From positions 66-64,065 of the forward strand of contig CACZDM010000006.1 of assembly GCA_902779915.1 (NCBI GenBank): a stretch of DNA of 64,000 bases, written 5' to 3'. This document shows positions 3,602-48,642 of the stretch, piece after piece. How positions within the stretch are numbered: the first letter of the stretch is position 1; every line of letters starts with the position of its first letter. Source of the DNA: Oscillospiraceae bacterium. GTDB lineage: Bacteria > Bacillota > Clostridia > Oscillospirales > Ruminococcaceae. Below the pieces are notes generated by a model that saw nothing but the letters and a program-made list of their open reading frames with translations, did no database searches and was not told the origin of the DNA. The position numbers were made by a program, and so were the translations under genes.

Positions 3602-3630
3602 ATTATATCACAACCCATAAAATTTGTCAA
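3602..3630 (-). promoter_or_regulatory. Sigma-70-type promoter for rpmF
   Basis: On the minus strand: TTGACA, 17 nt, TATAAT. The -35 overlaps the pgi stop codon. Confidence 0.5.
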
Positions 3631-17289: not shown

Positions 17290-17319
17290 TTGACAAGCCG
17301 GTTTTATGTGTGCTATAAT
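17290..17319 (+). promoter_or_regulatory. Promoter of the tRNA-Thr/tRNA-Tyr pair
   Basis: TTGACA, 18 nt, TGcTATAAT (extended -10), about 25 nt upstream of tRNA-Thr. Confidence 0.6.
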
Positions 17320-38038: not shown

Positions 38039-38210
38039 GGGAGATCACGATATAATTAATATGCAAAACCCAAAGGAAAAATTCAAGACTTAATCCACAA
38101 ACAACCTCAACAGCCCATATTATACACCAAACAATTTCAGTTGTCAATAGTTTATTTAAAATTTTTAAAAATAAATTTTTAAAACCCGAAAAATCAAGTC
38201 AAACCAACAC

Positions 38211-39707
38211 TCATCCGCTTCTGGATCTTCTTTTGTATCTGTAAAATATCATGACAGCAGCTAGGAAAAACAAAATCGGCCCACCAACCATCCACACAAC
38301 CTGATACACCGCATCGCTCTCCCCGGCTAGTATGGGGTGGATAACGATAAATATATTGGCTAACAAATCAACAAAAAAAACCAAACCAGCTGCCAGATAG
38401 ACCATAGCCCTGGACTTAAACAAGGTGTATTCATGATTTAAAGCGCTGTTTTTTCTAAAGGCGGGAAAAGCAGCAGAGATGAACAAATACGGCATAGTCT
38501 GCGCAACATTAGCAAGCAAAATTAAAATATTGTAAAACGATTTAGCCCCCTGGCCGCCGAAAGAAAATATGAGAACAAAAAAACAAATAACTCCCGTTTG
38601 AATCCACATTGCAATATGCGGCATGTCAAACCTATTCTTCGTCGAAAAAAACTTCGGCCAAAGCCCCTGCGGCGCTCCGTCTAAAATCGTCTTGAGCGGA
38701 GAATATATTATTGTGAAAAATGCCCCCATATAGGTCATAAAAACTGAAAAACCAACCGCCCGAGCAAACCACACACCCATCGACAAAGCCGACTCAGCCG
38801 AAAGCCCCAAAACAATCCCGAGTCTATGGCCTAAATTACCCATCATAACATATAAAACATTACCCATGTTGACGCCTTCTGCTGAAAAAAGCTCAGACCA
38901 ATTATGGCTGATTCCCCAGCAAAATATCGAAAAAGAATATCCAAAAGCTATAAACAGCGCCGAAATCAAAATGCCGCGAGAAAACGCTCTAGTCGACTTG
39001 GTCTTTTCAACCAAACTTCCCAAACTTTCCGGACCTGCATACGCAAACAAAGCAAATGTAATGAAGCCAAAAATGAAGAACAAATCCCCGCCCTGAGGGT
39101 TTGGAGAGCAAAAAAACGACTCCACGCCCTCAATAGGCTGCGCAAACTCCCCGCCCGTCAAAACCAAAACAACCAAACTGGCCAGGTAAAGAAGGCAGTT
39201 TATCGCAGCATTTGCAATTCCGCCAAACTTGGCAATAAAAGAGATTTTATTAAATCCCCTGGTCGCGAAAAAGGTTATCAAAAGCATCAAAACAACCGCT
39301 AAAACGCCTATGGTCTGGGTTGAACTTAGCCCCAAAACACTCCAACTCTGCGTCGTGTCCTCGCCAAACAAAAATGATGACATGGGAATCCATATTTTGA
39401 TCGAGACGGTTATCATCCAAACCATAAAAGCAAAATAGAAAATGAACGCTCCAACAAAGCCATAAAGCTCCCCCTTGGCCGCCGCCAGCCATGTATACAT
39501 ACCGCCGCCACTGTTTTTAAAAGACGACGCATATTCAGCAACCATAAACATAACAGGGAGGAAAAAAGTAGCCCCAGCGAACAAATACCACAATATTGAA
39601 GCATATCCCAGGCGATAAAAAGCCAGAGGAGAATTATTAAATCCAAAAACTACGGAAAATATCACCAAAACAACGCCCGCAGTGGATAATTTCTTTAAAT
39701 CAGACAC
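38211..39707 (-). CDS. APC-superfamily amino acid permease (YjeM/GadC-like)
   Basis: 498 aa, about 12-13 TM segments. GTG start 6 nt after GAGGAGG. Confidence 0.75.
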   Translation of the reverse strand: MSDLKKLSTAGVVLVIFSVVFGFNNSPLAFYRLGYASILWYLFAGATFFLPVMFMVAEYASSFKNSGGGMYTWLAAAKGELYGFVGAFIFYFAFMVWMITVSIKIWIPMSSFLFGEDTTQSWSVLGLSSTQTIGVLAVVLMLLITFFATRGFNKISFIAKFGGIANAAINCLLYLASLVVLVLTGGEFAQPIEGVESFFCSPNPQGGDLFFIFGFITFALFAYAGPESLGSLVEKTKSTRAFSRGILISALFIAFGYSFSIFCWGISHNWSELFSAEGVNMGNVLYVMMGNLGHRLGIVLGLSAESALSMGVWFARAVGFSVFMTYMGAFFTIIYSPLKTILDGAPQGLWPKFFSTKNRFDMPHIAMWIQTGVICFFVLIFSFGGQGAKSFYNILILLANVAQTMPYLFISAAFPAFRKNSALNHEYTLFKSRAMVYLAAGLVFFVDLLANIFIVIHPILAGESDAVYQVVWMVGGPILFFLAAVMIFYRYKRRSRSG

Positions 39708-39923
39708 CTAACCCCTCCTCAACTCTTGCAGATATAGAACAAAAAGCCGCCTACTGTGATGTGAATAATACACACTTCCAAAACATCACAAACGAAACAA
39801 CATCATTTTACAACTTAAAACAATTCTTGTCAATACCATAATCAAATATTTGTTAAATATCACCCAAAATAACACATTTTAAAGGTGTGAAATAGTGCAA
39901 TTATGCTAAAAATCAGAAACATT

Positions 39924-40844
39924 CTAATTCTGCTTCTCGTGTAAAACCACTACTTCTTCCTCTTCATGCGCCTCGTTCAGCACTACGACATCTTCCTCTT
40001 CTTCATGCGCCGCGTTCAGCACTACAACGTCTTCTTCTTCGTCATGCGCCGCGTTCAGCACCACAACGTCTTCTTCTTCGTCATGCGCCGCGTTCAGCAC
40101 TACAACGTCTTCTTCTTCGTCATGCGCCGCGTTCAGCACTACGACATCTTCCTCTTCGTCATGCGCCGCGTTCAGCACTACAGCGTCTTCTTCTTCACCA
40201 TGCGCCGCGTTCAGCACCACAACGTCTTCTCCTTCACCATGCGCCGCGTTCAGCACCACAACGTCTTCTCCTTCGTCATGCGCTGCATTCAGCACCACAA
40301 CGTCTTCTTCTTCGTCATGCGTCGCGTTCAGCACCACAACGTCTTCTCCTTCGTCATGCGCTGCATTCAGCACCACAACGTCTTCTTCTTCGTCATGCGC
40401 CGCATTCAGCATCACAACGTCTTCTTCTTCGTCATGCGCCGCGTTCAGCACCACAACGTCTTCCTCAGCGTCATGCGCCGCGTTCAGCACTACAACGTCT
40501 TCCTCAGCGTCATGCGCCGCCTTCAGCACCACAACGTCTTCCTCAGCGTCATGCGCCTCGTGCAGCACCACAACGTCTTCCTCAGCGTCATGCGCCGCAT
40601 TCAGCACCACAACGTCTTCCTCAGCGTCATGCGCCGCGTTCAGCACTACAACGTCTTCTTCTTCACCATGCGCCGCATTCAGCACCACAACGTCTTCTCC
40701 TTCGTCATGCGCCTCATTCAGCACCACAACGTTTTTTTCTTTCTCGCTATCAGCATAAACTGCACTATTAAAAGCATGTATGGGCGAAACACCCGCAACA
40801 ATCAAAAAACAAGTCAACTTTGAAACCAGTTTTTTTAACACCAT
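39924..40844 (-). CDS. Secreted acidic tandem-repeat protein: signal peptide plus about 20 copies of VVVLNAAHDEEED
   Basis: ATG 9 nt after GGAGG, hydrophobic signal sequence (..CFLIVAGVSPIHAFNS), then 13-aa repeats to the C-terminus. Confidence 0.7.
   Translation of the reverse strand: MVLKKLVSKLTCFLIVAGVSPIHAFNSAVYADSEKEKNVVVLNEAHDEGEDVVVLNAAHGEEEDVVVLNAAHDAEEDVVVLNAAHDAEEDVVVLHEAHDAEEDVVVLKAAHDAEEDVVVLNAAHDAEEDVVVLNAAHDEEEDVVMLNAAHDEEEDVVVLNAAHDEGEDVVVLNATHDEEEDVVVLNAAHDEGEDVVVLNAAHGEGEDVVVLNAAHGEEEDAVVLNAAHDEEEDVVVLNAAHDEEEDVVVLNAAHDEEEDVVVLNAAHDEEEDVVVLNAAHEEEEDVVVLNEAHEEEEVVVLHEKQN
39939..40730 (-). repeat. 39-bp tandem repeat array, about 20 units, in frame within the CDS
   Basis: Plus-strand unit GTCATGCGCCGCGTTCAGCACCACAACGTCTTCTTCTTC, with point variants mainly in the acidic-codon part. 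Confidence 0.95.
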
Positions 40845-40883
40845 TAAAAGCAACCTCCGTTTAATAAAAAATTCACGCCCCTG

Positions 40884-40913
40884 ATTATATCACAAAACGG
40901 AAAATCTTGTCAA
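40884..40913 (-). promoter_or_regulatory. Promoter of the tandem-repeat protein gene
   Basis: Minus strand: TTGACA, 18 nt, TGaTATAAT. Confidence 0.55.
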
Positions 40914-40961: not shown

Positions 40962-42449
40962 TCAACAATCTTCAATCCTGCCTCCATTTAAAACCACTGT
41001 TGCGCATCCACCACTATACACAGCGCCCCTGCCTTCAGCTTTACATCTTTTAATGCTGCTATTTGCATTTATGGTTACCTTTCCGTTGAGAACATCTATG
41101 GCTCCGCCCTCTCCAGCTTGACAGTCACTAATGCTGCTGTTTTGGTTCATAAAAACGTTTCCATTAAGAACATCTATCGCTCCGCCATACTCCGCTTCAC
41201 AATCGCTAATCATGCTATTTCCGTTCATAGACACATCGCCTTTTCTAACATATATAGCTCCGGCTTCCATGCCTTTACACTTGCTAATCTTGCTTTTTCC
41301 GTTCATTTCCACCAAACCGTAAAAAACGCATATTGCTCCATTACGCCTGGTTTTACACCCACTGATCTCACTGCTTGCATTCATAAAAACCTTTCCCTCA
41401 TCAACAAGTATTGCCTCAGTGCGACTGAATTCACGGCCAACAACCCTGCAGTTTTCGTTCATATTTACTGTTCCGCTTTCCAAACATATCGCCCATCCGC
41501 CAAAATCAGCAGCCTCACAACCAACAATTTCGCTGTTTTGGTTCAAACTAACCGTTGCGCTCTTTCCATATATCGCTCCGCCGCCGCAACCAGCCCTGCA
41601 AGAACTAATCCTGCTTTTCCCATACATGTTCACTGTTCCGCTTTTAACGGATATGGCGCCTCCGCTTTTTTGTGACCCACATTCAACAATGCTGCTGTTT
41701 GCGTTCAGATTGATGCAGACTGAGCTTTGCGCACATATTGCCCCTCCATTTTTATCCACACAATCCACACCCTTTTGCGCAATAAGCGTCTCGATCCAGT
41801 CGCGACTTTCAACAAAACATCCGCTAATAACACTGTCATCGTTCATATTGACCACAGTCGAGCTCTCAGCAAATATGGCTCCCCCGTTGATCAAGGAACA
41901 AAATCCTTCGATGCTGCTGCTTCCATTTAAATTCAAAACCGATTTTTGCCCTTCTGAAGGCGCGCCCAGATGTATGCAACTGCTTTGTCTGGTCAGACCA
42001 TGACGAGAACTGACCCTAACATCATTTAAATTAACAACGCAATCACTAGCACGCAAAAAAAGCAAATCACGTTTGCAATCGGTTATCTTTTTCCCATGAC
42101 CATTTATGTTGATCGTCATGCCCTTAAATCTTGAATCAGTAAAATTAAAAATATAATCTCCCCCTGGATCCATGCCACAAGCGCCATTATCCAAACCCAA
42201 AACGTCATAGCCTATATAAATGTCATCACACAATTCGATGTTAATGGCGTTCACGTCATCAAGACCAGCCAATTCGCAATCAAGCCAGCCTTTAACATCC
42301 TCAATTTTGCTTAATTTCAAATTTATCTCCCCCGCGGCATAAACCACTCCAGCAGCCATATTAAGCAGAAAAACCATCATAAAACAAACCAAAACCAAGA
42401 AAAATTTTCTCAGTCCACTTTTTAAAATAAACCTTTGCCTAAACTTCAT
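40962..42449 (-). CDS. Secreted PMP-like parallel beta-helix repeat protein (paralog P1)
   Basis: Signal peptide, shared N-domain (YIFNFTDSRFKGMTININ, LLFLRA..C.V.L.DV), then about 12 coils of the type GGAI.V..G.V.MN.NS.IS.C.A. Start at the ATG 8 nt after GGAG. Confidence 0.7.
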   Translation of the reverse strand: MKFRQRFILKSGLRKFFLVLVCFMMVFLLNMAAGVVYAAGEINLKLSKIEDVKGWLDCELAGLDDVNAINIELCDDIYIGYDVLGLDNGACGMDPGGDYIFNFTDSRFKGMTININGHGKKITDCKRDLLFLRASDCVVNLNDVRVSSRHGLTRQSSCIHLGAPSEGQKSVLNLNGSSSIEGFCSLINGGAIFAESSTVVNMNDDSVISGCFVESRDWIETLIAQKGVDCVDKNGGAICAQSSVCINLNANSSIVECGSQKSGGAISVKSGTVNMYGKSRISSCRAGCGGGAIYGKSATVSLNQNSEIVGCEAADFGGWAICLESGTVNMNENCRVVGREFSRTEAILVDEGKVFMNASSEISGCKTRRNGAICVFYGLVEMNGKSKISKCKGMEAGAIYVRKGDVSMNGNSMISDCEAEYGGAIDVLNGNVFMNQNSSISDCQAGEGGAIDVLNGKVTINANSSIKRCKAEGRGAVYSGGCATVVLNGGRIEDC

Positions 42450-42485
42450 CACAAAATCTCCATTCAAATAAAAACTATTTTTTCA

Positions 42486-42515
42486 ATTATATCACATAAT
42501 GTAAAATATTGTCAA
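42486..42515 (-). promoter_or_regulatory. Promoter of P1
   Basis: Minus strand: TTGACA, 18 nt, TGaTATAAT. Confidence 0.55.
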
Positions 42516-42550
42516 GAAAACTCTGTGAAATTTCATAATTTTTTCGATCA

Positions 42551-42620
42551 GGTTATGTTTGGCCAATAAAACCCCTTGCTTAAAAAGTCCGTGACAATCG
42601 GCACGGGTTAACGACCTTAA
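42551..42620 (+). repeat. Degenerate mini-fragment of the foldback family
   Basis: GGTTATGTTTGGCCAATAAAACC..CTTGCTTAAAAAGTCCGTGACAATCGGCACGG resembles terminus plus AATAAACC plus the GTCCGTGACAAGCGGTAGG block. Confidence 0.35.
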
Positions 42621-42633
42621 AAACAAAAAAATC

Positions 42634-42662
42634 TAGCATAAATTGTCATAATATGATATAAT
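42634..42662 (+). promoter_or_regulatory. Promoter of P2 (extended -10, weak -35)
   Basis: TGaTATAAT at 42654-42662; -35 position reads TAGCAT. Confidence 0.45.
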
Positions 42663-42706
42663 TTAAATATGGGTGAAGTTAGGGTTGGCTTTATCCTTCT
42701 AGTCCA

Positions 42707-42726
42707 CTTTCCAGCGGTTTGGAAAG
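42707..42726 (+). promoter_or_regulatory. Conserved 5'-leader hairpin / inverted repeat upstream of P2
   Basis: CTTTCCA-GCGGTT-TGGAAAG, 47 nt before the ATG. A counterpart lies upstream of P3 at the same distance. Confidence 0.5.
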
Positions 42727-42773
42727 CGAATTTTCAAAACATATTTTAAATTATTTTGTTAGGAGGATTTGTT

Positions 42774-45700
42774 ATGTCACATTCATTAAAAATTATTTTA
42801 AATGGCGGATTAAAAAGGCTAATTTCAAGTTTAATTTGTTTGTCCATGGTTTTATCGACTTTTCCATTATTGTTGCTTAAAAGCATGGTTTGCGCAGGCG
42901 GTGATGATACTGCAACTATTACACTGAGTAATTTAAATGACTGTAATAATTTAAATAGCAATTTGTCAACTGCCAACCTGAACGGTAAAACAACTATAAA
43001 TATTGTTATAGGCACAAATTTTACTATTGACAACACATCGACTCCAACAATGACTACTGGTTCTGGGAATAAATACCTTTTCGATTTCACCGACAATAGA
43101 TTTAAGGACAAAACTATAAATATATCGGGAAATTCAACTCCGAGATCAATAAGTATATCAGATCCGAATTTGTTTTTCCTGTGTATGAAGTATGCAACAG
43201 TAAATTTACAAGACATAATAATTAACGGACAAGGTCAAAACAGGCCGGGAGCTTTTATTAATTTGCAAAAAAGCGGAAACTCAATTCCAATATTAAACGT
43301 GGGCAAAGGTGTAAAAATTCAAAATTGCATCAATAAAGGAAACGATGGAACCTCTGGACAAGACGGGGAGGATGCTTTGGGAGGCGCAATATATTGCAAA
43401 GGCGGTCAAGTGACAATTGGCGTTGGCAGTGGCGTCAATCTTGCCAGCAACGCGCAAATTACTTCATGTCAAGCTATTGGAGGAAATGGCGGAAAAGGAG
43501 CAGATGGAGTGTGGGGATGCGATGGCCAAGACGGCGGCAATGGCGGCAGAGGCAAAGGCGGAGCGATTTATTGCTGTGGCGGCGGAAAAATTGTCCTCAA
43601 TAACGGAACAATTAGCAATTGTTTAAGCGTGTATGGAGATGGAGGAGATGGAGGAGATGGAGGAGATGGAGGAGATGCACTTCCAACCACAAGCGTTAAA
43701 AAACTAACGTATAGTATATACTATGTATATTATGAAAATACTACGGAAACGAAAAAAGAAAGATTAAATATCACCCAACTGGAAAACGGCGGCAATGGGG
43801 GACGTGGCGGCAATGGGGGACGTGGCGGCAATGGGGGACGCGGCAGCAATGGCAAAAGCGCAAAAAACTCTGATCCCAATTGGAATACCAAAAGCAAGTT
43901 AATAGAACTAGATTCAGGTATTAAGCACCGTGACCAATGTGATGGATTTAGTGGCGGAAACGGAGGAAACGGTGGCGACGGTGGCATGGGAACAGAAACT
44001 AAAGGCGGAGACGGCGGAGACGGCGGAAAAGGTGGAATGGGAAACTTATTAGGATGTGGAGGTAACGGAGGTAATGGTGGTAATGGTGGTAATGGTGGTA
44101 ATGGTGGTAATGGTAATTATAATTATCTTGATAAAACCATTTACGATGACCTAAATACTAAATCGATAAACTCATTTTTTCTCAACTTTTCACTTCCTGA
44201 ATACAAATCTATTAACCATGGTGGCAATGGTGGCAATGGTGGCAATGGTCACAATGGCGGCAATGGCGGCAATGGTGGTATTGGAGCACAGAAAATAATT
44301 ATAAACTCTATGATTATGCCTGATAATCAACTCATATTTTACGCTTCTAGCGGAAACGGCGGAAGCGGCGGCATGGGAATCAACGCAGGAAACGGCGGCA
44401 AGGCCGGAATGTTGATCGTGTCAAGGTGGACAAAAAACAAACACGAAATTATAAAGGTAAAGGATGATAACAGTATGGTTGGCAAAGCCGGCCAAGAAGG
44501 ACACGTGATTGAAAAAGAAACAGTGCCAATTATCGGATTTTATGAAGAAGGCGGCGGCGGTGGAGGCGCGATATGCATTGAAGATGGAGAATTAAGACTA
44601 ATGGACGGCAAAATTGAAAACTGTTCATCTAATGAGAGAGGAAGCAATATCTTTATTGGACCCTATGTTAAGTGTAGTTTTAGCACAGATTTAGTAATTT
44701 CTAAACCGTCCCAATTTAAAAATCCTAATGACCAAAACAGAACATTGTCAGTTAGTGATTTACAAAAATACTATAATTCTCCCCAAGATAAAACGATTGG
44801 ATATCCCGGAGTTTATTGCAGCAGTCATTTTAGACAAGCATATTATAAACTGGTTTTTGTTAATGCTGACGATCCTTCAGAAAAATTATATGTTCAAGAT
44901 TTTGCAACCGAGAGAAACGGCTATATTGTTCCCAGCAGACCCGGATATAAATTCAATAAACTGACATATGGCGATGACAATAAAGATATTGAAACAAAAC
45001 AAACAGGTGATACGTATACGTTCGATTTAAACGACAATATTATTAATACTGAAAAAAATTGGGTTATAACTCTTAAAGCTAAATACGATAAACTATACAC
45101 AATAAATTATATTTGTAAAAATAAGCGTATCAGATCAGCAAAAGATCAAACAATTGGTCTTTCCTTTGATCTTGCGAATCCTGTTCCAAAGGATGATGCA
45201 TTTGAGAAAGCAATCGAGCCAGACCAGGGTTATAAATTTTCTAAAATCACCTATGGCCGTGATAATGTTCCAATTCCCAAAGAAGGCCTAACCCGTGATG
45301 GGTTGATAAATCAAGCTGATGGCGATGTGATAACGTTCATGATAAATCATGAGCCAAAACAATACAGTTTGGAATATGTTGATGAAAATAAAGACCCCAT
45401 GACCGTTAAAGACTTGGATGGCAATCAAGCCGATTCGCAACAAGTCAAATTCGGCGATGATATTAAAACAATGACGCCTAAGGATGAAAAACTGGGATAT
45501 GATTTTAAATGCTGGCATGTTTTGGATAAAAATGGAAATGAATTGAAGGAGAAGGGCCAACCGATTGACTTCGAAACAGCAAAAGCTTCTTGGAAAACTT
45601 TATCAAATGCTGCTGATGATGATAATAAAATAAAATTAAAAGCGGTCTACACGCCAAAAAAATATATTATAAAATATAACACAAGGAGTGACAAGACTAT

Positions 45701-45950
45701 TTATGATAAGGAATTTTATATTGGCAAGGATAAAGACTCACAATTAGACCAAAAAATTGCGAATAGCTACATCTCAAAGGCATATTCAAACGGCAGAACT
45801 AAAAATACTATTAGTAATAAATATTGGAAATATGGCGTAAATGGTTCATTTGATGCAAACAATAAACCAACTTGGAGAGAATTGATAAAAAGCGCGATTG
45901 TTGACGAATACGGCAACAACCTGATCATTTTGGAAGCTGTATATCAATAA
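42774..45950 (+). CDS. Large secreted protein (paralog P2): shared N-domain, GGAIY beta-helix coils interrupted by GGN/GGD glycine-rich blocks, C-terminal Listeria/Bacteroides-type (Flg_new-like) repeats
   Basis: ATG 7 nt after AGGAGG, signal peptide LKRLISSLICLSMV, KYLFDFTDNRFKDKTINI, GGAIYC motifs, G-rich blocks, GY.F..(W/L) repeat modules. Confidence 0.75.
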   Translation: MSHSLKIILNGGLKRLISSLICLSMVLSTFPLLLLKSMVCAGGDDTATITLSNLNDCNNLNSNLSTANLNGKTTINIVIGTNFTIDNTSTPTMTTGSGNKYLFDFTDNRFKDKTINISGNSTPRSISISDPNLFFLCMKYATVNLQDIIINGQGQNRPGAFINLQKSGNSIPILNVGKGVKIQNCINKGNDGTSGQDGEDALGGAIYCKGGQVTIGVGSGVNLASNAQITSCQAIGGNGGKGADGVWGCDGQDGGNGGRGKGGAIYCCGGGKIVLNNGTISNCLSVYGDGGDGGDGGDGGDALPTTSVKKLTYSIYYVYYENTTETKKERLNITQLENGGNGGRGGNGGRGGNGGRGSNGKSAKNSDPNWNTKSKLIELDSGIKHRDQCDGFSGGNGGNGGDGGMGTETKGGDGGDGGKGGMGNLLGCGGNGGNGGNGGNGGNGGNGNYNYLDKTIYDDLNTKSINSFFLNFSLPEYKSINHGGNGGNGGNGHNGGNGGNGGIGAQKIIINSMIMPDNQLIFYASSGNGGSGGMGINAGNGGKAGMLIVSRWTKNKHEIIKVKDDNSMVGKAGQEGHVIEKETVPIIGFYEEGGGGGGAICIEDGELRLMDGKIENCSSNERGSNIFIGPYVKCSFSTDLVISKPSQFKNPNDQNRTLSVSDLQKYYNSPQDKTIGYPGVYCSSHFRQAYYKLVFVNADDPSEKLYVQDFATERNGYIVPSRPGYKFNKLTYGDDNKDIETKQTGDTYTFDLNDNIINTEKNWVITLKAKYDKLYTINYICKNKRIRSAKDQTIGLSFDLANPVPKDDAFEKAIEPDQGYKFSKITYGRDNVPIPKEGLTRDGLINQADGDVITFMINHEPKQYSLEYVDENKDPMTVKDLDGNQADSQQVKFGDDIKTMTPKDEKLGYDFKCWHVLDKNGNELKEKGQPIDFETAKASWKTLSNAADDDNKIKLKAVYTPKKYIIKYNTRSDKTIYDKEFYIGKDKDSQLDQKIANSYISKAYSNGRTKNTISNKYWKYGVNGSFDANNKPTWRELIKSAIVDEYGNNLIILEAVYQ
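43635..43676 (+). repeat. 9-bp in-frame microsatellite (GGAGATGGA x about 4.7) encoding (GDG)n
   Basis: Read directly from the sequence. Confidence 0.9.
43788..43841 (+). repeat. 18-bp in-frame tandem repeat x3 (GGCGGCAATGGGGGACGT) encoding GGNGGR x3
   Basis: Read directly from the sequence. Confidence 0.9.
44058..44117 (+). repeat. 9-bp in-frame microsatellite (GGTAATGGT, 5 perfect units plus degenerate flanks) encoding (GNG)n
   Basis: Read directly; the perfect units span 44070-44114. Confidence 0.9.
44220..44279 (+). repeat. 9-bp in-frame repeat (GGTGGCAAT / GGCGGCAAT, about 6.5 units) encoding (GGN)n
   Basis: Read directly from the sequence. Confidence 0.9.
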
Positions 45951-45979
45951 GCTCAAAAACACAAAATATCACAAAAACA

Positions 45980-46017
45980 AACCAACCGTCAGCCCGACAA
46001 AGAGCTGGTGGTTGGTT
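45980..46017. terminator. Bidirectional hairpin between convergent P2 and P3
   Basis: AACCAACCGTCAGC, 10-nt loop, GCTGGTGGTTGGTT; T-run after it on the plus strand and A-run before it. Confidence 0.6.
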
Positions 46018-46052
46018 TTGAAATGAAATTCTTGCTCTGTAAATTTAAAATC

Positions 46053-48497
46053 TTAAGCGTTTCCAAAAAAACTCTGATTTGTAATAACGGAGCCGCTTTC
46101 GTATGCTATGCCATTGACATAGGAAGGATTTTTTGGAGAAGACTTTTTCGCTTCTTGAGGCTCGATCTTTTCGTATGTGGCTCTGAGAACGATCACATTA
46201 TTGCCTGCCGAATCAACCATTGCGCTTTTTATTAATGTGTCCCATGTGACTCCATTAACATCCGCATCACTTCCGTCAGGTTGGGTATATACCCACTTTT
46301 TAAATTCATAACCTAATTTACTTGGTTTTGTAGAAGATACTTCAACATAAGAGTTAAGATTTTTATCTTGACTAATTGTGTAAGTTGTGGGATCAACCAC
46401 ATCTGTGCTATATGGATTATATTTTATAGTATATGTTTTTGGCGCGTAGACCGCTTTTAATTTTATGGTGTTATTATCATCAGCAGCATTTGCTAAAGTT
46501 TCCCAAGAAGCTTTTGCCGTTTCAAAGTCAATAGGATCGCCATTATCCTTCAATTCATTTCCATCACTGCCCAAAACATGCCAGCATTTAAAATCATATC
46601 CCAGTTTTTTAAATGGGGTGACTGCTTTAATGTCTTCGCCGAACTTGACTTCTTGAGTTTGAATTTGAGAACCGCCGGCATCAGTAACATTTATAGATGT
46701 GGTACCGTCCTCATCCATATACATTATGTTATATGTTCTTGGCTCATGATTTAAAAAAATAGATATCACATCACCAACTGCAGCTTGACTCAAGCTGTCC
46801 CAAATTGTCGCAGTGTCTCCCGAAGCAACATACTTCAAAGCGTCGCCATAAGTAATTTCCGAAAATGTATAACCAAGCTTTGGCGTTGCTATTTCATTAA
46901 GTTTTTTATTGTCATCCACAGCGATATTATTCCAATTAGCATCCATAATCGCGCTAATGAGCGTTTGATCGCGTATACAGTCTTTCTTTGTTGCAACAAC
47001 TTTATTGTCATAAATATATTGGATTGTATATATTTTTTTATACGTGGCGGTTAAAGTTATCACGCCATCCTGCTTTGCGTTTTGTATAATATCACCGTCT
47101 AATTTAAATTTATTATCCGCCACATCTATTGAGTTTTCTCCTTCATCATTTAAGCTAATAAGTCTATATCCTGCTCTCTCAGGAACACACACATCAGAAT
47201 ACTTGGTGAACATTCCTTGCCCTAATTTTTCACTCGTACCAGCCTCAACAAACTGAATGTTATAATTTGGATTTGCTCGAACAATTCCATCATCATTATA
47301 AATTCCTTTATATCCATAAACTTCATTAGCCGTGCTATTGTGGTCGCAGGAAGCGTGCTCCTCAGGCAATACAATAGTTAACAGTTCTAATTGTGTATAC
47401 GGAAGCATCAAAACGCCTTTATTATATATAGCATCTGCGCGTTCAGTTTCCTCTTCAGAAAAAGTGACATGACAACCAGTAATATAGCATTTGTTAATAG
47501 TTAATGCTCCAGTACTGTTGTTATATATAGCGCCTCCAAAATCATTGGCAAAACAGTTCTCAATTTTGCCACTGTCAATAGTCACCACTCCAACACTGTC
47601 GTTATATATTGCTCCACCAACACTCGCATTTTGACCTTCTGATATGTTAATGTGACCATTAATCGAGCTTTCTCCCGCAATTATCAGCTGATTAAGGTTA
47701 TATATAGCACCTCCACTTTTCACGCAAGCACAATCGTTAATCTCGCATTTTTCATCCATTATCAATATTCCAGTGTTATATACCGCGCCTCCGCACCCGT
47801 TTTCGCCCTCACAAGTGCAATTACTAATTTTACTGTTTTGTAAAAACTTCAAATTTCCAGCATTGTTTATCGCGCCTCCATAGCCACTTTGCTCAGAATT
47901 ACAACAATCTTGAATGGTTGATGAACGTGTTTCTAGTTCCGACGCCAGCCCAACATTAATGAAAGCGCCTGCTCTTTCTATTGCACTATCACTTCGGCCA
48001 TCAATCACAATATTTTTCAAAATAACTTTGCAATTTTGCATATTCAAGAAAAATAAAGCAGCATTATCTATGGTTATTGTGCTGCGTCCTCCACTTTTTG
48101 TCCCATCTATAGTTATCGTTTTATCTTTAAATCGCTTATCAGTGAAATCAAAAAGATATTTATTTCCATCACTCCCGGTCGTCATTGTTGGAACATTATC
48201 CACTGTATAGGAGGAATTGACGTTAATATCTTCGGTTACATTAATAACTATTTCATCTGGCGCATCATCCGCAACCAAGGCAGTCTTGCTCAAAGGGCCC
48301 TCTGTTTCACTCATCCAAGTGGCCACACTACCGATCTTGTCTGATTTCAGTTCAATAGTTATGTCAGAATCCGTTGCCCAAACCGATCCTTGAAACATAT
48401 GCATTGGAAAAGTTGCCGAAACCATCATCAAATAAATTAAAGTTGAAATTAATCTTTTTAAGCCGCCCTTTAAATTAATTTTTAATAAACCTTGCAT
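46053..48497 (-). CDS. Large secreted PMP-like beta-helix protein (paralog P3) with C-terminal Listeria/Bacteroides-type repeats
   Basis: ATG after GGAGAGG, signal peptide LKRLISTLIYLMMV, KYLFDFTDKRFKDKTITI, six or more GGAIYN/GGAINN coils. The C-terminal half is collinear with P2. Confidence 0.75.
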   Translation of the reverse strand: MQGLLKINLKGGLKRLISTLIYLMMVSATFPMHMFQGSVWATDSDITIELKSDKIGSVATWMSETEGPLSKTALVADDAPDEIVINVTEDINVNSSYTVDNVPTMTTGSDGNKYLFDFTDKRFKDKTITIDGTKSGGRSTITIDNAALFFLNMQNCKVILKNIVIDGRSDSAIERAGAFINVGLASELETRSSTIQDCCNSEQSGYGGAINNAGNLKFLQNSKISNCTCEGENGCGGAVYNTGILIMDEKCEINDCACVKSGGAIYNLNQLIIAGESSINGHINISEGQNASVGGAIYNDSVGVVTIDSGKIENCFANDFGGAIYNNSTGALTINKCYITGCHVTFSEEETERADAIYNKGVLMLPYTQLELLTIVLPEEHASCDHNSTANEVYGYKGIYNDDGIVRANPNYNIQFVEAGTSEKLGQGMFTKYSDVCVPERAGYRLISLNDEGENSIDVADNKFKLDGDIIQNAKQDGVITLTATYKKIYTIQYIYDNKVVATKKDCIRDQTLISAIMDANWNNIAVDDNKKLNEIATPKLGYTFSEITYGDALKYVASGDTATIWDSLSQAAVGDVISIFLNHEPRTYNIMYMDEDGTTSINVTDAGGSQIQTQEVKFGEDIKAVTPFKKLGYDFKCWHVLGSDGNELKDNGDPIDFETAKASWETLANAADDNNTIKLKAVYAPKTYTIKYNPYSTDVVDPTTYTISQDKNLNSYVEVSSTKPSKLGYEFKKWVYTQPDGSDADVNGVTWDTLIKSAMVDSAGNNVIVLRATYEKIEPQEAKKSSPKNPSYVNGIAYESGSVITNQSFFGNA

Positions 48498-48544
48498 AAA
48501 AACCTCTCCTTCTTTGAACATTTAAAATATGTTTTTAATATTTA

Positions 48545-48612: not shown

Positions 48613-48642
48613 ATTATATCATTTTACGTCATAATATGTCAA
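48613..48642 (-). promoter_or_regulatory. Promoter of P3
   Basis: Minus strand: TTGACA, 18 nt, TGaTATAAT. Confidence 0.55.

What the first reader, a model, noticed from the sequence alone, without database searches (positions are those of the whole stretch)
39939..40730. About 20 tandem 39-bp repeats encode a secreted (VVVLNAAHDEEED)n protein
The gene at 39924-40844 (minus strand) has a good RBS, a strong promoter and a signal peptide. After that it consists almost entirely of about 20 head-to-tail 13-aa units with consensus VVVLNAAHDEEED. Variation is concentrated in the acidic part (DEEED, DAEED, DEGED, GEGED, GEEED, EEEED) and at a few other positions (N to H or K, A to T or E, V to M or A). 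Each unit pairs a short hydrophobic beta-strand-like VVVL with one His and 4-5 acidic residues. This suggests a very acidic, His-studded solenoid or fibre that could bind divalent cations. There is no LPXTG motif or other anchor that I can see. I do not recognise this repeat from any described family. The array is also a substrate for repeat-number variation by slippage or recombination.
Basis: partly seen in the sequence, partly recalled or inferred. Interest (0 to 1): 0.7.

Follow-up and report, generated by a model that had tools for sequence, protein, structure and literature searches.

The report
Secreted, extremely acidic tandem-repeat orphan protein
An uncultured cattle-rumen bacterium carries a real, probably highly expressed gene for an exported protein that is almost nothing but about 20 copies of a 13-residue unit with a net charge near -88; the protein belongs to no described family, evolves fast by repeat shuffling, and has no known function.

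Summary
TRF finds 20.2 copies of a 39-bp unit (91% match, no indels) inside a minus-strand ORF, 39924-40844. Upstream lie an exact TTGACA-18-TATAAT promoter and a GGAGG ribosome-binding site, and the ORF begins with a signal-peptide-like N-terminus.

Variation among units falls on codon position 3 of the minus-strand frame. That frame is therefore the coding one, and the open plus-strand ORF is a by-product.

Orthologues occur at the same position in two related rumen Ruminococcaceae MAGs. Promoter, ribosome-binding site and signal peptide are conserved there. The units differ (13-15 aa, e.g. VIELQKASDDDEEK, VVELHKAHHDDEEED). Only V1, L4, A7 and the acidic run persist, along with a total charge of -88 to -93. 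His is not conserved.

Pfam, NCBIfam, PDB sequences and three very large protein searches returned no real relative.

AlphaFold2 predicts one strand per unit (pTM 0.74-0.84). AF2 is known to produce such solenoid models for near-perfect repeats that have no real fold. The charge-hydropathy plot predicts disorder.

Best reading: an anchorless, exported polyanion, probably a bulk binder of cations, that evolves by concerted evolution. Its signal peptide appears borrowed from neighbouring PMP-like surface-protein paralogues. It is an orphan of a familiar kind, and interest is modest.

The parts
40884..40913 (-). Promoter: exact -35 TTGACA, 18-nt spacer, TG-extended -10 (TGATATAAT)
   Evidence: There are 6 exact-consensus promoters in 64 kb against 0.06 expected; two of the others precede tRNA clusters. 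This promoter is identical in RUG13514 and RUG14392, while sequence upstream of the -35 diverges.
40854..40858 (-). Ribosome-binding site GGAGG, 9 nt before the ATG
   Evidence: Sequence read; conserved in both orthologues.
39924..40844 (-). Coding sequence, 306 aa plus stop codon
   Evidence: Codon-position test 3/17/39. Syntenic orthologues in L007 and L008.
40752..40844 (-). Signal peptide, residues 1-31, predicted cleavage VYA|DS
   Evidence: Read from the sequence. 90-95% DNA identity between species. Homologous to the signal peptides of the three neighbouring PMP-like paralogues.
40731..40751 (-). Short non-repeat linker DSEKEKN (residues 32-38)
   Evidence: Conserved in the orthologues as DSEKEKN or DGEQEKN.
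39954..40730 (-). Array of 20 head-to-tail 39-bp units (the last is 36 bp), consensus GTTGTGGTGCTGAACGCGGCGCATGACGAAGAAGAAGAC = VVVLNAAHDEEED
   Evidence: GC is 56% against 38% for the window, and the codons are rare for this genome.
39927..39953 (-). Degenerate terminal unit VVVLHEKQN, the C-terminus, with no anchor motif
   Evidence: Identical in every allele that reaches the 3' end.
39907..39931 (-). Weak A/U-rich hairpin plus U-run overlapping the stop codon; no convincing intrinsic terminator
   Evidence: z-score -0.42, not significant.
39966..40823 (+). Shadow ORF (MRRVQHHNVFFFV repeats) on the opposite strand; not a gene
   Evidence: It uses the same triplets reversed, so unit variation would fall on its codon position 1.
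40962..42449 (-). Upstream neighbour: 495-aa secreted PMP-like (GGAI-repeat) protein with its own exact-consensus promoter at 42486-42515
   Evidence: Its 5' region is the best blastn match of the array gene's 5' region.
42756..45950 (+). PMP-like paralogue with GGNGG/GGDGG micro-repeats
46053..48521 (-). PMP-like paralogue; its signal peptide is 38% identical and 66% similar to that of the array gene
38211..39707 (-). Downstream neighbour: YjeM-type amino-acid permease with its own promoter (39805-39833); used as the synteny anchor

Best explanation
Shown:
- This is a genuine protein-coding gene of an uncultured rumen Ruminococcaceae lineage.
- It has a consensus promoter, a ribosome-binding site and a cleavable Sec-type signal peptide, and no recognisable wall or membrane anchor.
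- Its mature product is about 20 copies of a 13-residue module. Each module is a short hydrophobic patch (V-x-x-L-x-x-A) followed by a run of 5-7 acidic residues.

Shown by comparison:
- The array evolves by unit gain, loss and homogenisation (concerted evolution). Unit sequence, unit length (13-15 aa) and unit number differ between close relatives.
- The periodic V/L/A pattern and the total charge (-88 to -93) are kept.

Inferred origin: the promoter-proximal region and signal peptide derive from the neighbouring family of PMP-like secreted proteins. The mature part is a locally amplified 39-bp segment with codons atypical for the genome.

Inferred mechanism:
- The protein works through bulk physical chemistry, not through a specific fold. 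It would be a released, largely disordered polyanion, a ribosomally made counterpart of teichoic acid or poly-gamma-glutamate.
- It would bind divalent cations (Ca2+, Mg2+) with high capacity and low affinity, and possibly cationic peptides or surfaces.
- The regularly spaced hydrophobic patches could allow cation-dependent compaction or self-association into extracellular matrix.
For: Gene reality:
- Codon-position variation is 3/17/39.
- Promoter, ribosome-binding site and signal peptide are conserved in two other species, while sequence upstream of the -35 diverges.
- The same gene appears in more than 15 independent rumen metagenome contigs, always in frame.

Likely strong expression: the promoter is one of only six exact-consensus promoters in 64 kb, and two of the others drive tRNA clusters.

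Export without anchoring: the signal peptide has V-x-A at -3/-1, as in its paralogues. There is no LPXTG, lipobox or C-terminal hydrophobic tail, and no wall-binding Pfam domain.

Polyanion character:
- 34% D+E, net charge -88, only 4 basic residues, and no Cys or aromatic residues.
- The orthologues carry -93 and -89 despite different units.
- All three plot as disordered on the charge-hydropathy plot.

Concerted evolution: within-array core identity is 0.915, against 0.69-0.75 between species. The flanking permease is 0.92-0.95 identical and the signal-peptide DNA 0.90-0.95.

Origin:
- The three best blastn hits of the gene's 5' 200 nt in the window are the 5' ends of the three PMP-like genes.
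- BLASTP of the signal peptide against the 822-aa paralogue gives E 3e-6.
- Array codons are atypical: CTG 100% against 11% genome-wide, GCG 81% against 26%, GTG 54% against 11%.
Against: - There are no expression, localisation or binding data of any kind. The functional part rests on composition.
- AF2 twice gives a fairly confident all-beta repeat model. If that is right, the protein is folded rather than disordered.
- The hydrophobic patch (V, L, A invariant across 3 species) suggests more than charge is selected.
- The charge-hydropathy plot ignores counter-ions.
- The alleles with 6-16 units would carry far less charge, so 'conserved total charge' rests on three full-length sequences, two of them from short-read MAGs.
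- The protein databases searched do not even contain this family's own full-length members, so 'orphan' is less certain than the empty searches suggest.
Confidence: 0.45

Rival explanations
1. Folded beta-solenoid or functional-amyloid-like fibre. Each 13-aa unit would form one strand plus an acidic turn. Units would stack into a solenoid whose acidic turns are neutralised by Ca2+, as in RTX beta-rolls or the Ca2+-dependent MpAFP beta-helix.
For: - AF2 gives pLDDT 73 / pTM 0.74 for the full protein and 82 / 0.84 for the mature part, with one roughly 10-residue strand per unit.
- All weak Foldseek hits are beta-solenoids, including RTX, MpAFP, CsgA and FapC.
- VVVL is beta-prone, and the L-N resembles the V-x-L-N turns of the neighbouring PMP-like beta-helix proteins (marginal E 0.006).
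Against: - No Foldseek hit is significant (best E 0.22, TM no higher than 0.36).
- The five AF2 models range from pLDDT 53 to 82.
- AF2 is documented to give confident, unrealistic beta-solenoids for perfect repeats of even random sequence, with stacked uncompensated charges (PMC11795689).
- Orthologous units VEELHKAH and VIELQKAS have no hydrophobic face in a strand. They look more like short helices with i/i+4 Glu-Lys pairs.
- Unit length varies between 13, 14 and 15 aa within one protein.
Confidence: 0.2
2. A variable surface or secreted decoy whose main selected property is variability itself. The array would change unit number and sequence to escape phage, protozoal or salivary-antibody recognition, like other bacterial VNTR surface antigens. 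The acidity would be incidental.
For: - The array diverges rapidly while its flanks stay conserved.
- There are two allele groups and several unit numbers among rumen samples.
- The gene lies in an island of polymorphic secreted paralogues, one of which also varies in length between assemblies.
Against: - No anchor is present, so the protein is not obviously displayed on the cell.
- Net charge and the V/L/A periodicity are conserved, which points to a physico-chemical constraint.
- In-frame 39-bp units cannot switch expression on and off.
- The length differences may be short-read assembly artefacts.
Confidence: 0.15
3. A polyprotein precursor cut into many copies of a 13-residue peptide (a signal or an anionic peptide), like yeast alpha-factor or multi-core RiPP precursors.
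For: A signal peptide followed by many near-identical short units.
Against: - There are no conserved cleavage sites: no dibasic sites, and Lys positions differ between species.
- The mature window protein has no Cys, one Ser (in the DSEKEKN linker) and one Thr, so it has almost nothing to modify.
- No modifying enzyme, protease or dedicated transporter gene is adjacent.
- Unit sequence is not conserved between close species.
Confidence: 0.03
4. Not a real gene: a non-coding minisatellite, an assembly artefact, or a gene on the plus strand.
For: - Both strands are open.
- Short-read contigs often break or disagree inside the array.
- GC content and codon usage are atypical.
Against: - The codon-position bias fits only the minus-strand frame.
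- Promoter, ribosome-binding site, ATG and signal peptide are conserved in three species.
- All alleles and orthologues keep the frame despite different unit lengths.
Confidence: 0.02

Closest known systems
Treponema pallidum acidic repeat protein Arp (TP0433)
   Same: A bacterial protein dominated by near-perfect in-frame tandem repeats rich in Glu. Unit number varies between strains (2-22), sequence variation is confined to a few positions per unit, short-read assemblies fail on it, and its function is unknown (PMC9531955).
   Different: The Arp unit is 60 bp / 20 aa, against 39 bp / 13 aa here. The phylum and unit sequence are unrelated. No homology was detected or expected.
Ehrlichia tandem-repeat proteins TRP32/47/120
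   Same: Secreted, pI about 4, dominated by tandem repeats, anomalous gel migration, species-specific units (abstracts of PMC2832021 and PMC3417381).
   Different: They are exported by type I secretion in a Gram-negative intracellular pathogen. Units are 19-80 aa and Ser-rich. They act as effectors inside host cells. There is no sequence relation.
RTX beta-roll and Ca2+-dependent beta-helix proteins (e.g. CyaA RTX, MpAFP 3p4g)
   Same: Acidic repeat proteins that are disordered without Ca2+ and fold on binding it (own knowledge). They are the top, though non-significant, Foldseek neighbours of the AF2 model.
   Different: RTX repeats are Gly/Asp-rich nonapeptides (GGxGxD), absent here. There is no HemolysinCabind Pfam hit. 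RTX proteins use type I secretion with a C-terminal signal, not an N-terminal Sec signal.
Poly-gamma-glutamate and teichoic acids (functional analogues, not homologues)
   Same: Extracellular polyanions of Gram-positive bacteria that sequester divalent cations and cationic peptides (own knowledge).
   Different: These are non-ribosomal polymers made by dedicated synthases. Here the polyanion is a gene product, and the analogy is untested.
Sarcoplasmic histidine-rich Ca2+-binding protein and calsequestrin-type acidic proteins
   Same: Tandem units that pair His with long acidic runs, and high-capacity low-affinity Ca2+ binding by a largely disordered chain (own knowledge; general discussion of Glu-rich disordered proteins in PMC5424795, listed but not read in full).
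   Different: These are eukaryotic lumenal proteins with different unit length and sequence. His is not conserved in this bacterial family.
[quoted passage not shown]
   Same: Variable-number tandem repeats in microbial membrane-targeted or secreted ORFs, with both strands open (PMC2996958).
   Different: The PARCEL motif is 25 residues and its DNA has dyad symmetry. The 39-bp unit here has none: best circular self-complement match 18 of 39, shuffles 16.9 +/- 1.8.

Membership tests
Any Pfam / NCBIfam family | Score at or above the curated cut-off of a family model | tested here: not met
   Pfam gives only sub-threshold, zero-stretch composition matches (BetaGal_dom2 23.6 < 25, and others). NCBIfam gives none. 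The PHROGs hit phrog_10405 has no stretch passing on its own.
RTX Ca2+-binding beta-roll | Gly/Asp nonapeptide GGxGxDxUx repeats | tested here: not met
   The regex GG.G.D has 0 hits in all three orthologues. There is no HemolysinCabind hit.
RTX Ca2+-binding beta-roll | Type I secretion with a C-terminal signal and adjacent ABC/MFP genes | tested here: not met
   The protein has an N-terminal Sec-type signal peptide instead. The neighbours are a permease and PMP-like proteins.
Sortase-anchored (LPXTG) repeat adhesins, e.g. Ser-Asp repeat proteins | C-terminal LPXTG motif, hydrophobic stretch and a basic tail | tested here: not met
   No [LN]Px[TAS][GNDAS] motif is present. The C-terminus is ...VVVLHEKQN.
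Bacterial lipoproteins | Lipobox [LVI][ASTVI][GAS]C at the end of the signal peptide | tested here: not met
   0 hits. The only Cys (C12) lies in K-L-T-C, before the hydrophobic core.
Chlamydia-type polymorphic membrane protein repeats (PF02415), the family of the neighbours | GGAI and FxxN repeat motifs forming a beta-helix | tested here: not met
   The array protein has no PF02415 hit. BLASTP of the mature part against the 495-aa neighbour is only marginal (E 0.006, 22% identity).
Chlamydia-type polymorphic membrane protein repeats (PF02415), the family of the neighbours | Shared N-terminal leader of the local paralogue family | tested here: met
   Signal peptide against the 822-aa paralogue: 38% identity over 29 aa, E 3e-6. 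The three best DNA hits of the 5' region are the three paralogues' 5' ends. This indicates a shared origin of the leader only, not membership of the family.
Curli / Fap functional amyloids | Curlin or Fap repeat motifs (Q/N-rich strand-turn-strand) and dedicated secretion/nucleator genes | tested here: not met
   No Curlin_rpt Pfam hit. Foldseek to CsgA and FapC gives E of 1 or more and TM no higher than 0.16. No csg- or fap-like genes are nearby.
Curli / Fap functional amyloids | Forms amyloid fibres | not testable with these tools
   Needs thioflavin-T or EM on the protein.
T. pallidum Arp-type acidic repeat proteins | 60-bp (20-aa) Glu-rich units | tested here: not met
   The unit here is 39 bp / 13 aa. 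Arp unit length comes from PMC9531955. This is an analogy only.
PARCEL repeats | 25-residue motif encoded by DNA with dyad symmetry | tested here: not met
   The unit is 13 residues with no dyad symmetry. The definition comes from PMC2996958.
Multi-core RiPP or pheromone precursors | Conserved core peptides flanked by cleavage sites, with modifying or processing genes adjacent | tested here: not met
   No dibasic or conserved cleavage sites. Cores are not conserved between species. No such neighbouring genes.
Sec-exported proteins with a cleavable type I signal peptide | Basic n-region, hydrophobic h-region, small residues at -3/-1 | tested here: inconclusive
   The pattern is present and conserved. 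No signal-peptide predictor was available and no experiment exists.

The most novel reading that the evidence does not exclude
A young gene made by placing a locally amplified 39-bp segment behind a duplicated promoter and signal peptide of a surface-protein family. It would yield a new class of ribosomally made extracellular polyanion that folds or assembles only when loaded with Ca2+/Mg2+, as a cation-triggered solenoid or matrix fibre. In rumen Firmicutes it would play the role that teichoic acids or poly-gamma-glutamate play elsewhere.
Probability: 0.12. Interest if true: 0.55.

Novelty: new member of a known kind. Interest (0 to 1): 0.3.

Why it matters
If the protein is made in quantity, as its tRNA-grade promoter suggests, a polymer carrying 88 negative charges and released by a rumen Firmicute could affect local Ca2+/Mg2+ availability. 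Cellulosome assembly and wall enzymes depend on Ca2+. It could also affect biofilm cohesion or resistance to cationic bacteriocins.

It is also a clean small example of two general processes:
- a new secreted protein arising from repeat amplification behind a borrowed leader;
- concerted evolution that keeps charge and periodicity while the sequence drifts.

Practically, it is a warning case. Short-read assemblies break or collapse on it. The large protein collections searched here lack it. AF2 gives it a confident fold that may be an artefact. Without expression or binding data it remains one more orphan low-complexity secreted protein.

Tried and rejected
- Exact look-up of the protein and its alleles in the 15-billion protein collection found none present. 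The three word-index searches (full protein, N-terminal profile, 4-unit profile) returned only P0037, a 33-aa fragment of this same gene.
- The exhaustive phmmer search of 1.84 billion representatives gave 106 hits. The eight full-length top hits I inspected are unrelated, eukaryote-looking proteins that merely share 13-aa periodicity and acid/His composition.
- Two JGI metagenome scans found nothing: signal-peptide patterns and a degenerate VVLN[AE]AHD DNA pattern.
- tblastn against phages gave no match. Against plasmids it gave only unrelated repeat proteins.
- The PDB sequence search gave nothing. Two Foldseek PDB searches gave nothing significant.
- A PARCEL-type element was rejected.
- Plus-strand coding was rejected.
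- Derivation of the repeat unit from the PMP-like V-x-L-N coils is inconclusive.
- EF-hand, DxDxDG, HExxH and collagen-like motifs are absent, apart from one chance HEAQH in RUG14392.
- No Rfam family other than tRNAs is present in the window.
- An intrinsic terminator after the gene was not found convincingly.
- An operon with the permease is unlikely, because each gene has its own promoter.
Full report
**1. What is there**

Tandem Repeats Finder reports one outstanding array in the window: 39953-40741, period 39 bp, 20.2 copies, 91% matches, no indels, score 1165. It lies inside a minus-strand ORF, 39924-40844.

Parsed in frame, the protein has these parts:
- a 31-residue signal-peptide-like N-terminus, MVLKKLVSKLTCFLIVAGVSPIHAFNSAVYA;
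- a 7-residue linker, DSEKEKN;
- 20 units with consensus VVVLNAAHDEEED;
- a degenerate last unit, VVVLHEKQN.

The ATG at 40844 is preceded at 9 nt by GGAGG. An exact TTGACA-18-TATAAT promoter with a TG extension lies at 40913-40884.

**2. Which strand codes**

A 39-bp unit without stop codons leaves several frames open, and the plus strand also carries a 285-aa ORF (39966-40823). Among the 20 units, the variable sites number 3, 17 and 39 at codon positions 1, 2 and 3 of the minus-strand frame. The plus-strand ORF uses the same triplets reversed, so most of its variation would fall on position 1. Together with the ribosome-binding site, start codon and signal peptide, this settles the minus strand as coding.

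**3. Where it comes from, and relatives**

The adjacent YjeM-type permease is found with identical sequence on rumen metagenome contigs. Some carry Stewart-2019 'STEW19' or PRJEB21624 labels. That these label cattle-rumen studies is my own knowledge.

A scan of one genome per GTDB species with the permease found four MAGs, all titled 'Ruminococcaceae bacterium RUG...'.
- RUG13514 (permease 96% identical) and RUG14392 (93%) carry an orthologue in the same position.
- RUG14389 and RUG13599 (62-63%) do not.

In the two orthologues the -35 and -10 hexamers, the spacer, the ribosome-binding site and the signal peptide are conserved. In RUG14392 the sequence upstream of the -35 is unrelated.

The repeat units are different:
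- RUG13514 has VVVLNEAHDD(D)ENN and VIELQKASDD(D)EEK;
- RUG14392 has VVELHKAHHDDEEED, VEELHKAHHDDEEEH, VSVLHEAQNDDAGSN and others;
- unit lengths are 13, 14 and 15 aa.

Only V1, L4, A7 and the acidic run are invariant. His8 is often Ser or Gln.

Within the window's array the 24-nt unit cores are 91.5% identical. Between species they are 69-75% identical. The permease is 92-95% identical and the signal-peptide DNA 90-95%. This is concerted evolution of a fast-changing array between stable flanks.

**4. Alleles**

Complete ORFs on independent rumen assemblies have 6, 15, 15 and 16 units against 20 here. Two allele groups differ in the first unit. The last two units and the tail are constant.

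The 16-unit allele (L014) equals the window's array minus units 4-7. Many contigs end inside the array. Two contigs from one sample disagree on unit order (L002 and L011).

All of these are short-read assemblies. Real length polymorphism is therefore likely but not proven.

**5. No known family**

- Pfam and NCBIfam give nothing above threshold. The PHROGs hit is a composition artefact.
- The PDB sequence search gives nothing.
- Three word-index searches of 5.8 billion clusters returned only a 33-aa fragment of this same gene.
- An exhaustive phmmer scan of 1.84 billion representatives returned 106 hits. The eight full-length top hits I inspected are unrelated, eukaryote-looking proteins with 13-residue periodicity.
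- Two JGI metagenome scans, and tblastn against phage and plasmid collections, found no relative.

One caution applies. The protein collection does not contain even the full-length alleles seen on ENA contigs. The absence of hits is therefore weaker evidence than the database sizes suggest.

**6. Physical character**

The mature protein is 275 aa and about 29.7 kDa. Its composition is V 22%, E 21.5%, A 15%, D 13%, H 8%, L 8% and N 7%. It has 94 acidic and 4 basic residues, net charge about -88 at pH 7, and no Cys, aromatic or Arg residues.

The orthologues carry -93 and -89. All three lie on the 'natively unfolded' side of the charge-hydropathy boundary, the orthologues by a wider margin.

No LPXTG, lipobox, RTX, DxDxDG, dibasic or collagen-like motif is present.

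**7. Structure prediction and its limits**

AF2 without an alignment gave pLDDT 73 / pTM 0.74 for the full protein and 82 / 0.84 for the mature part. Both have one roughly 10-residue strand per unit. The five models span pLDDT 53-82.

Foldseek against the PDB returns only non-significant matches (best E 0.22-0.28, TM no higher than 0.36). Almost all are beta-solenoids: RTX, MpAFP, RsaA, tapirin, CsgA and FapC.

Pratt et al. [quoted passage not shown] This protein is exactly that kind of input.

Orthologous units such as VEELHKAH and VIELQKAS have no hydrophobic strand face, and their helical hydrophobic moment exceeds their strand moment.

I therefore treat the solenoid as an open possibility, not a result.

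**8. Context and origin**

Upstream lie three paralogous secreted proteins with GGAI-type (Chlam_PMP-like) repeats: 40962-42449 (-), 42756-45950 (+) and 46053-48521 (-). Exact-consensus promoters precede the two minus-strand paralogues.

Exact TTGACA-N16-18-TATAAT promoters occur six times in the window against 0.06 expected. Two precede tRNA clusters, two precede the minus-strand paralogues and one precedes the array gene.

The array gene's signal peptide aligns with those of the paralogues. LKKLVSKLTCFLIVAGVSPIHAFNSAVYA aligns with LKRLISTLIYLMMVSATFPMHMFQGSVWA (E 3e-6; alignment).

When its 200-nt 5' region is compared with the rest of the window, the three best blastn hits are the 5' ends of exactly these three genes.

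The array itself has 56% GC in a 38% GC genome. It uses codons that are rare in the window's other genes: CTG 100% against 11%, GCG 81% against 26%, GTG 54% against 11%, GAC 94% against 36%. This fits recent amplification of a single founder unit.

The inference is that the gene arose when a leader of the PMP-like family was joined to an amplified 39-bp segment. Whether the unit derives from a V-x-L-N coil of a PMP-like gene is undecided.

**9. Most likely mode of action**

- Shown: gene structure, conservation of expression and export signals, lack of an anchor, polyanionic composition, concerted evolution.
- Inferred: the product is released and acts through bulk charge, as a high-capacity, low-affinity binder of divalent cations and perhaps of cationic peptides or surfaces. 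The spaced hydrophobic patches may allow cation-dependent compaction or self-association.

I put about 0.45 on this combined statement. The rivals are:
- a genuinely folded, Ca2+-stabilised solenoid or fibre (0.2);
- a variable decoy whose variability is the point (0.15);
- a peptide polyprotein (0.03);
- not a gene (0.02).

**10. Comparison with known systems**

In appearance and evolutionary behaviour the closest described cases are the T. pallidum acidic repeat protein Arp (PMC9531955) and the acidic secreted tandem-repeat proteins of Ehrlichia (PMC2832021). In possible mechanism the closest are Ca2+-dependent RTX-type repeats and non-protein polyanions.

It is a member of none of these. 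Every defining sequence feature that could be tested was not met (see the membership table). PARCELs were considered and rejected.

**11. Verdict**

- secreted, acidic, family-less and variable: yes;
- solenoid: unproven and at risk of being an AF2 artefact;
- His-studded: not conserved.

It is a new, lineage-restricted member of the familiar class of secreted low-complexity tandem-repeat proteins. Interest is 0.3.

Noticed in passing
window 40962-48521: An island of three paralogous secreted proteins with GGAI-type (Chlam_PMP-like) repeats, of 495-501, 1064 and 822 aa. Pairwise identity is 29-39%. They share a leader (LKxGLKRLISxLI) and a YLFDFTDxRFKDKTI motif. The two long ones share a C-terminal domain of about 450 aa with a weak Listeria-Bacteroides-repeat signal. 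None has a recognisable wall anchor.
   Followed up: partly
window 42756-45950 (micro-repeats at 43635-44278): This paralogue contains perfect 9- and 18-bp tandem repeats encoding GGDGG/GGNGG runs. Its length differs between assemblies: 1064 aa here, 1046 aa in L011, 1156 aa in L001, L012 and L013, and 752 aa in RUG14392. It is therefore a second length-variable gene next to the finding.
   Followed up: partly
window 40962-42449 and L007 5329-7122: The 495-aa PMP-like protein ends at ...VVLNGGRIEDC, exactly where a longer paralogue in RUG13514 continues (...FRGGLIEDCSVTFDG...). It therefore looks like a truncated family member, with the acidic-repeat gene sitting where its C-terminal part would be.
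   Followed up: no
window 3602-3630, 17290-17319, 38119-38147, 40884-40913, 42486-42515, 48613-48642: There are six exact TTGACA-N16-18-TATAAT promoters in 64 kb against 0.06 expected. Five of the six have TG just before the -10 hexamer. Two drive tRNA clusters and three drive the secreted repeat-protein genes.
   Followed up: partly
window 39722-39779 (leader of the permease gene): The 5' leader of the YjeM-type permease carries a roughly 58-nt insertion that is absent from both related MAGs. It contains a hairpin (TGTGATG...CATCACA) followed by a T-run, so it may be an acquired attenuator or a small insertion.
   Followed up: no
window 41080-41306: A 78-bp tandem repeat (about 2-3 copies, 75-80% match) lies inside the 495-aa PMP-like gene. 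It corresponds to its roughly 26-aa GGAI coils.
   Followed up: no
window 39954-40730: The array has 56% GC in a 38% GC genome. It uses CTG, GCG, GTG and GAC almost exclusively, all minority codons in the window's other genes. The orthologous arrays are less extreme, at 42% and 47% GC.
   Followed up: yes
protein collections used by the tools: Full-length alleles of this protein are called as genes on ENA contigs, yet they are absent from the 15-billion protein collection. Only a 33-aa fragment (P0037) is present. Empty homology searches for such repeat proteins are therefore less informative than the database sizes imply.
   Followed up: yes
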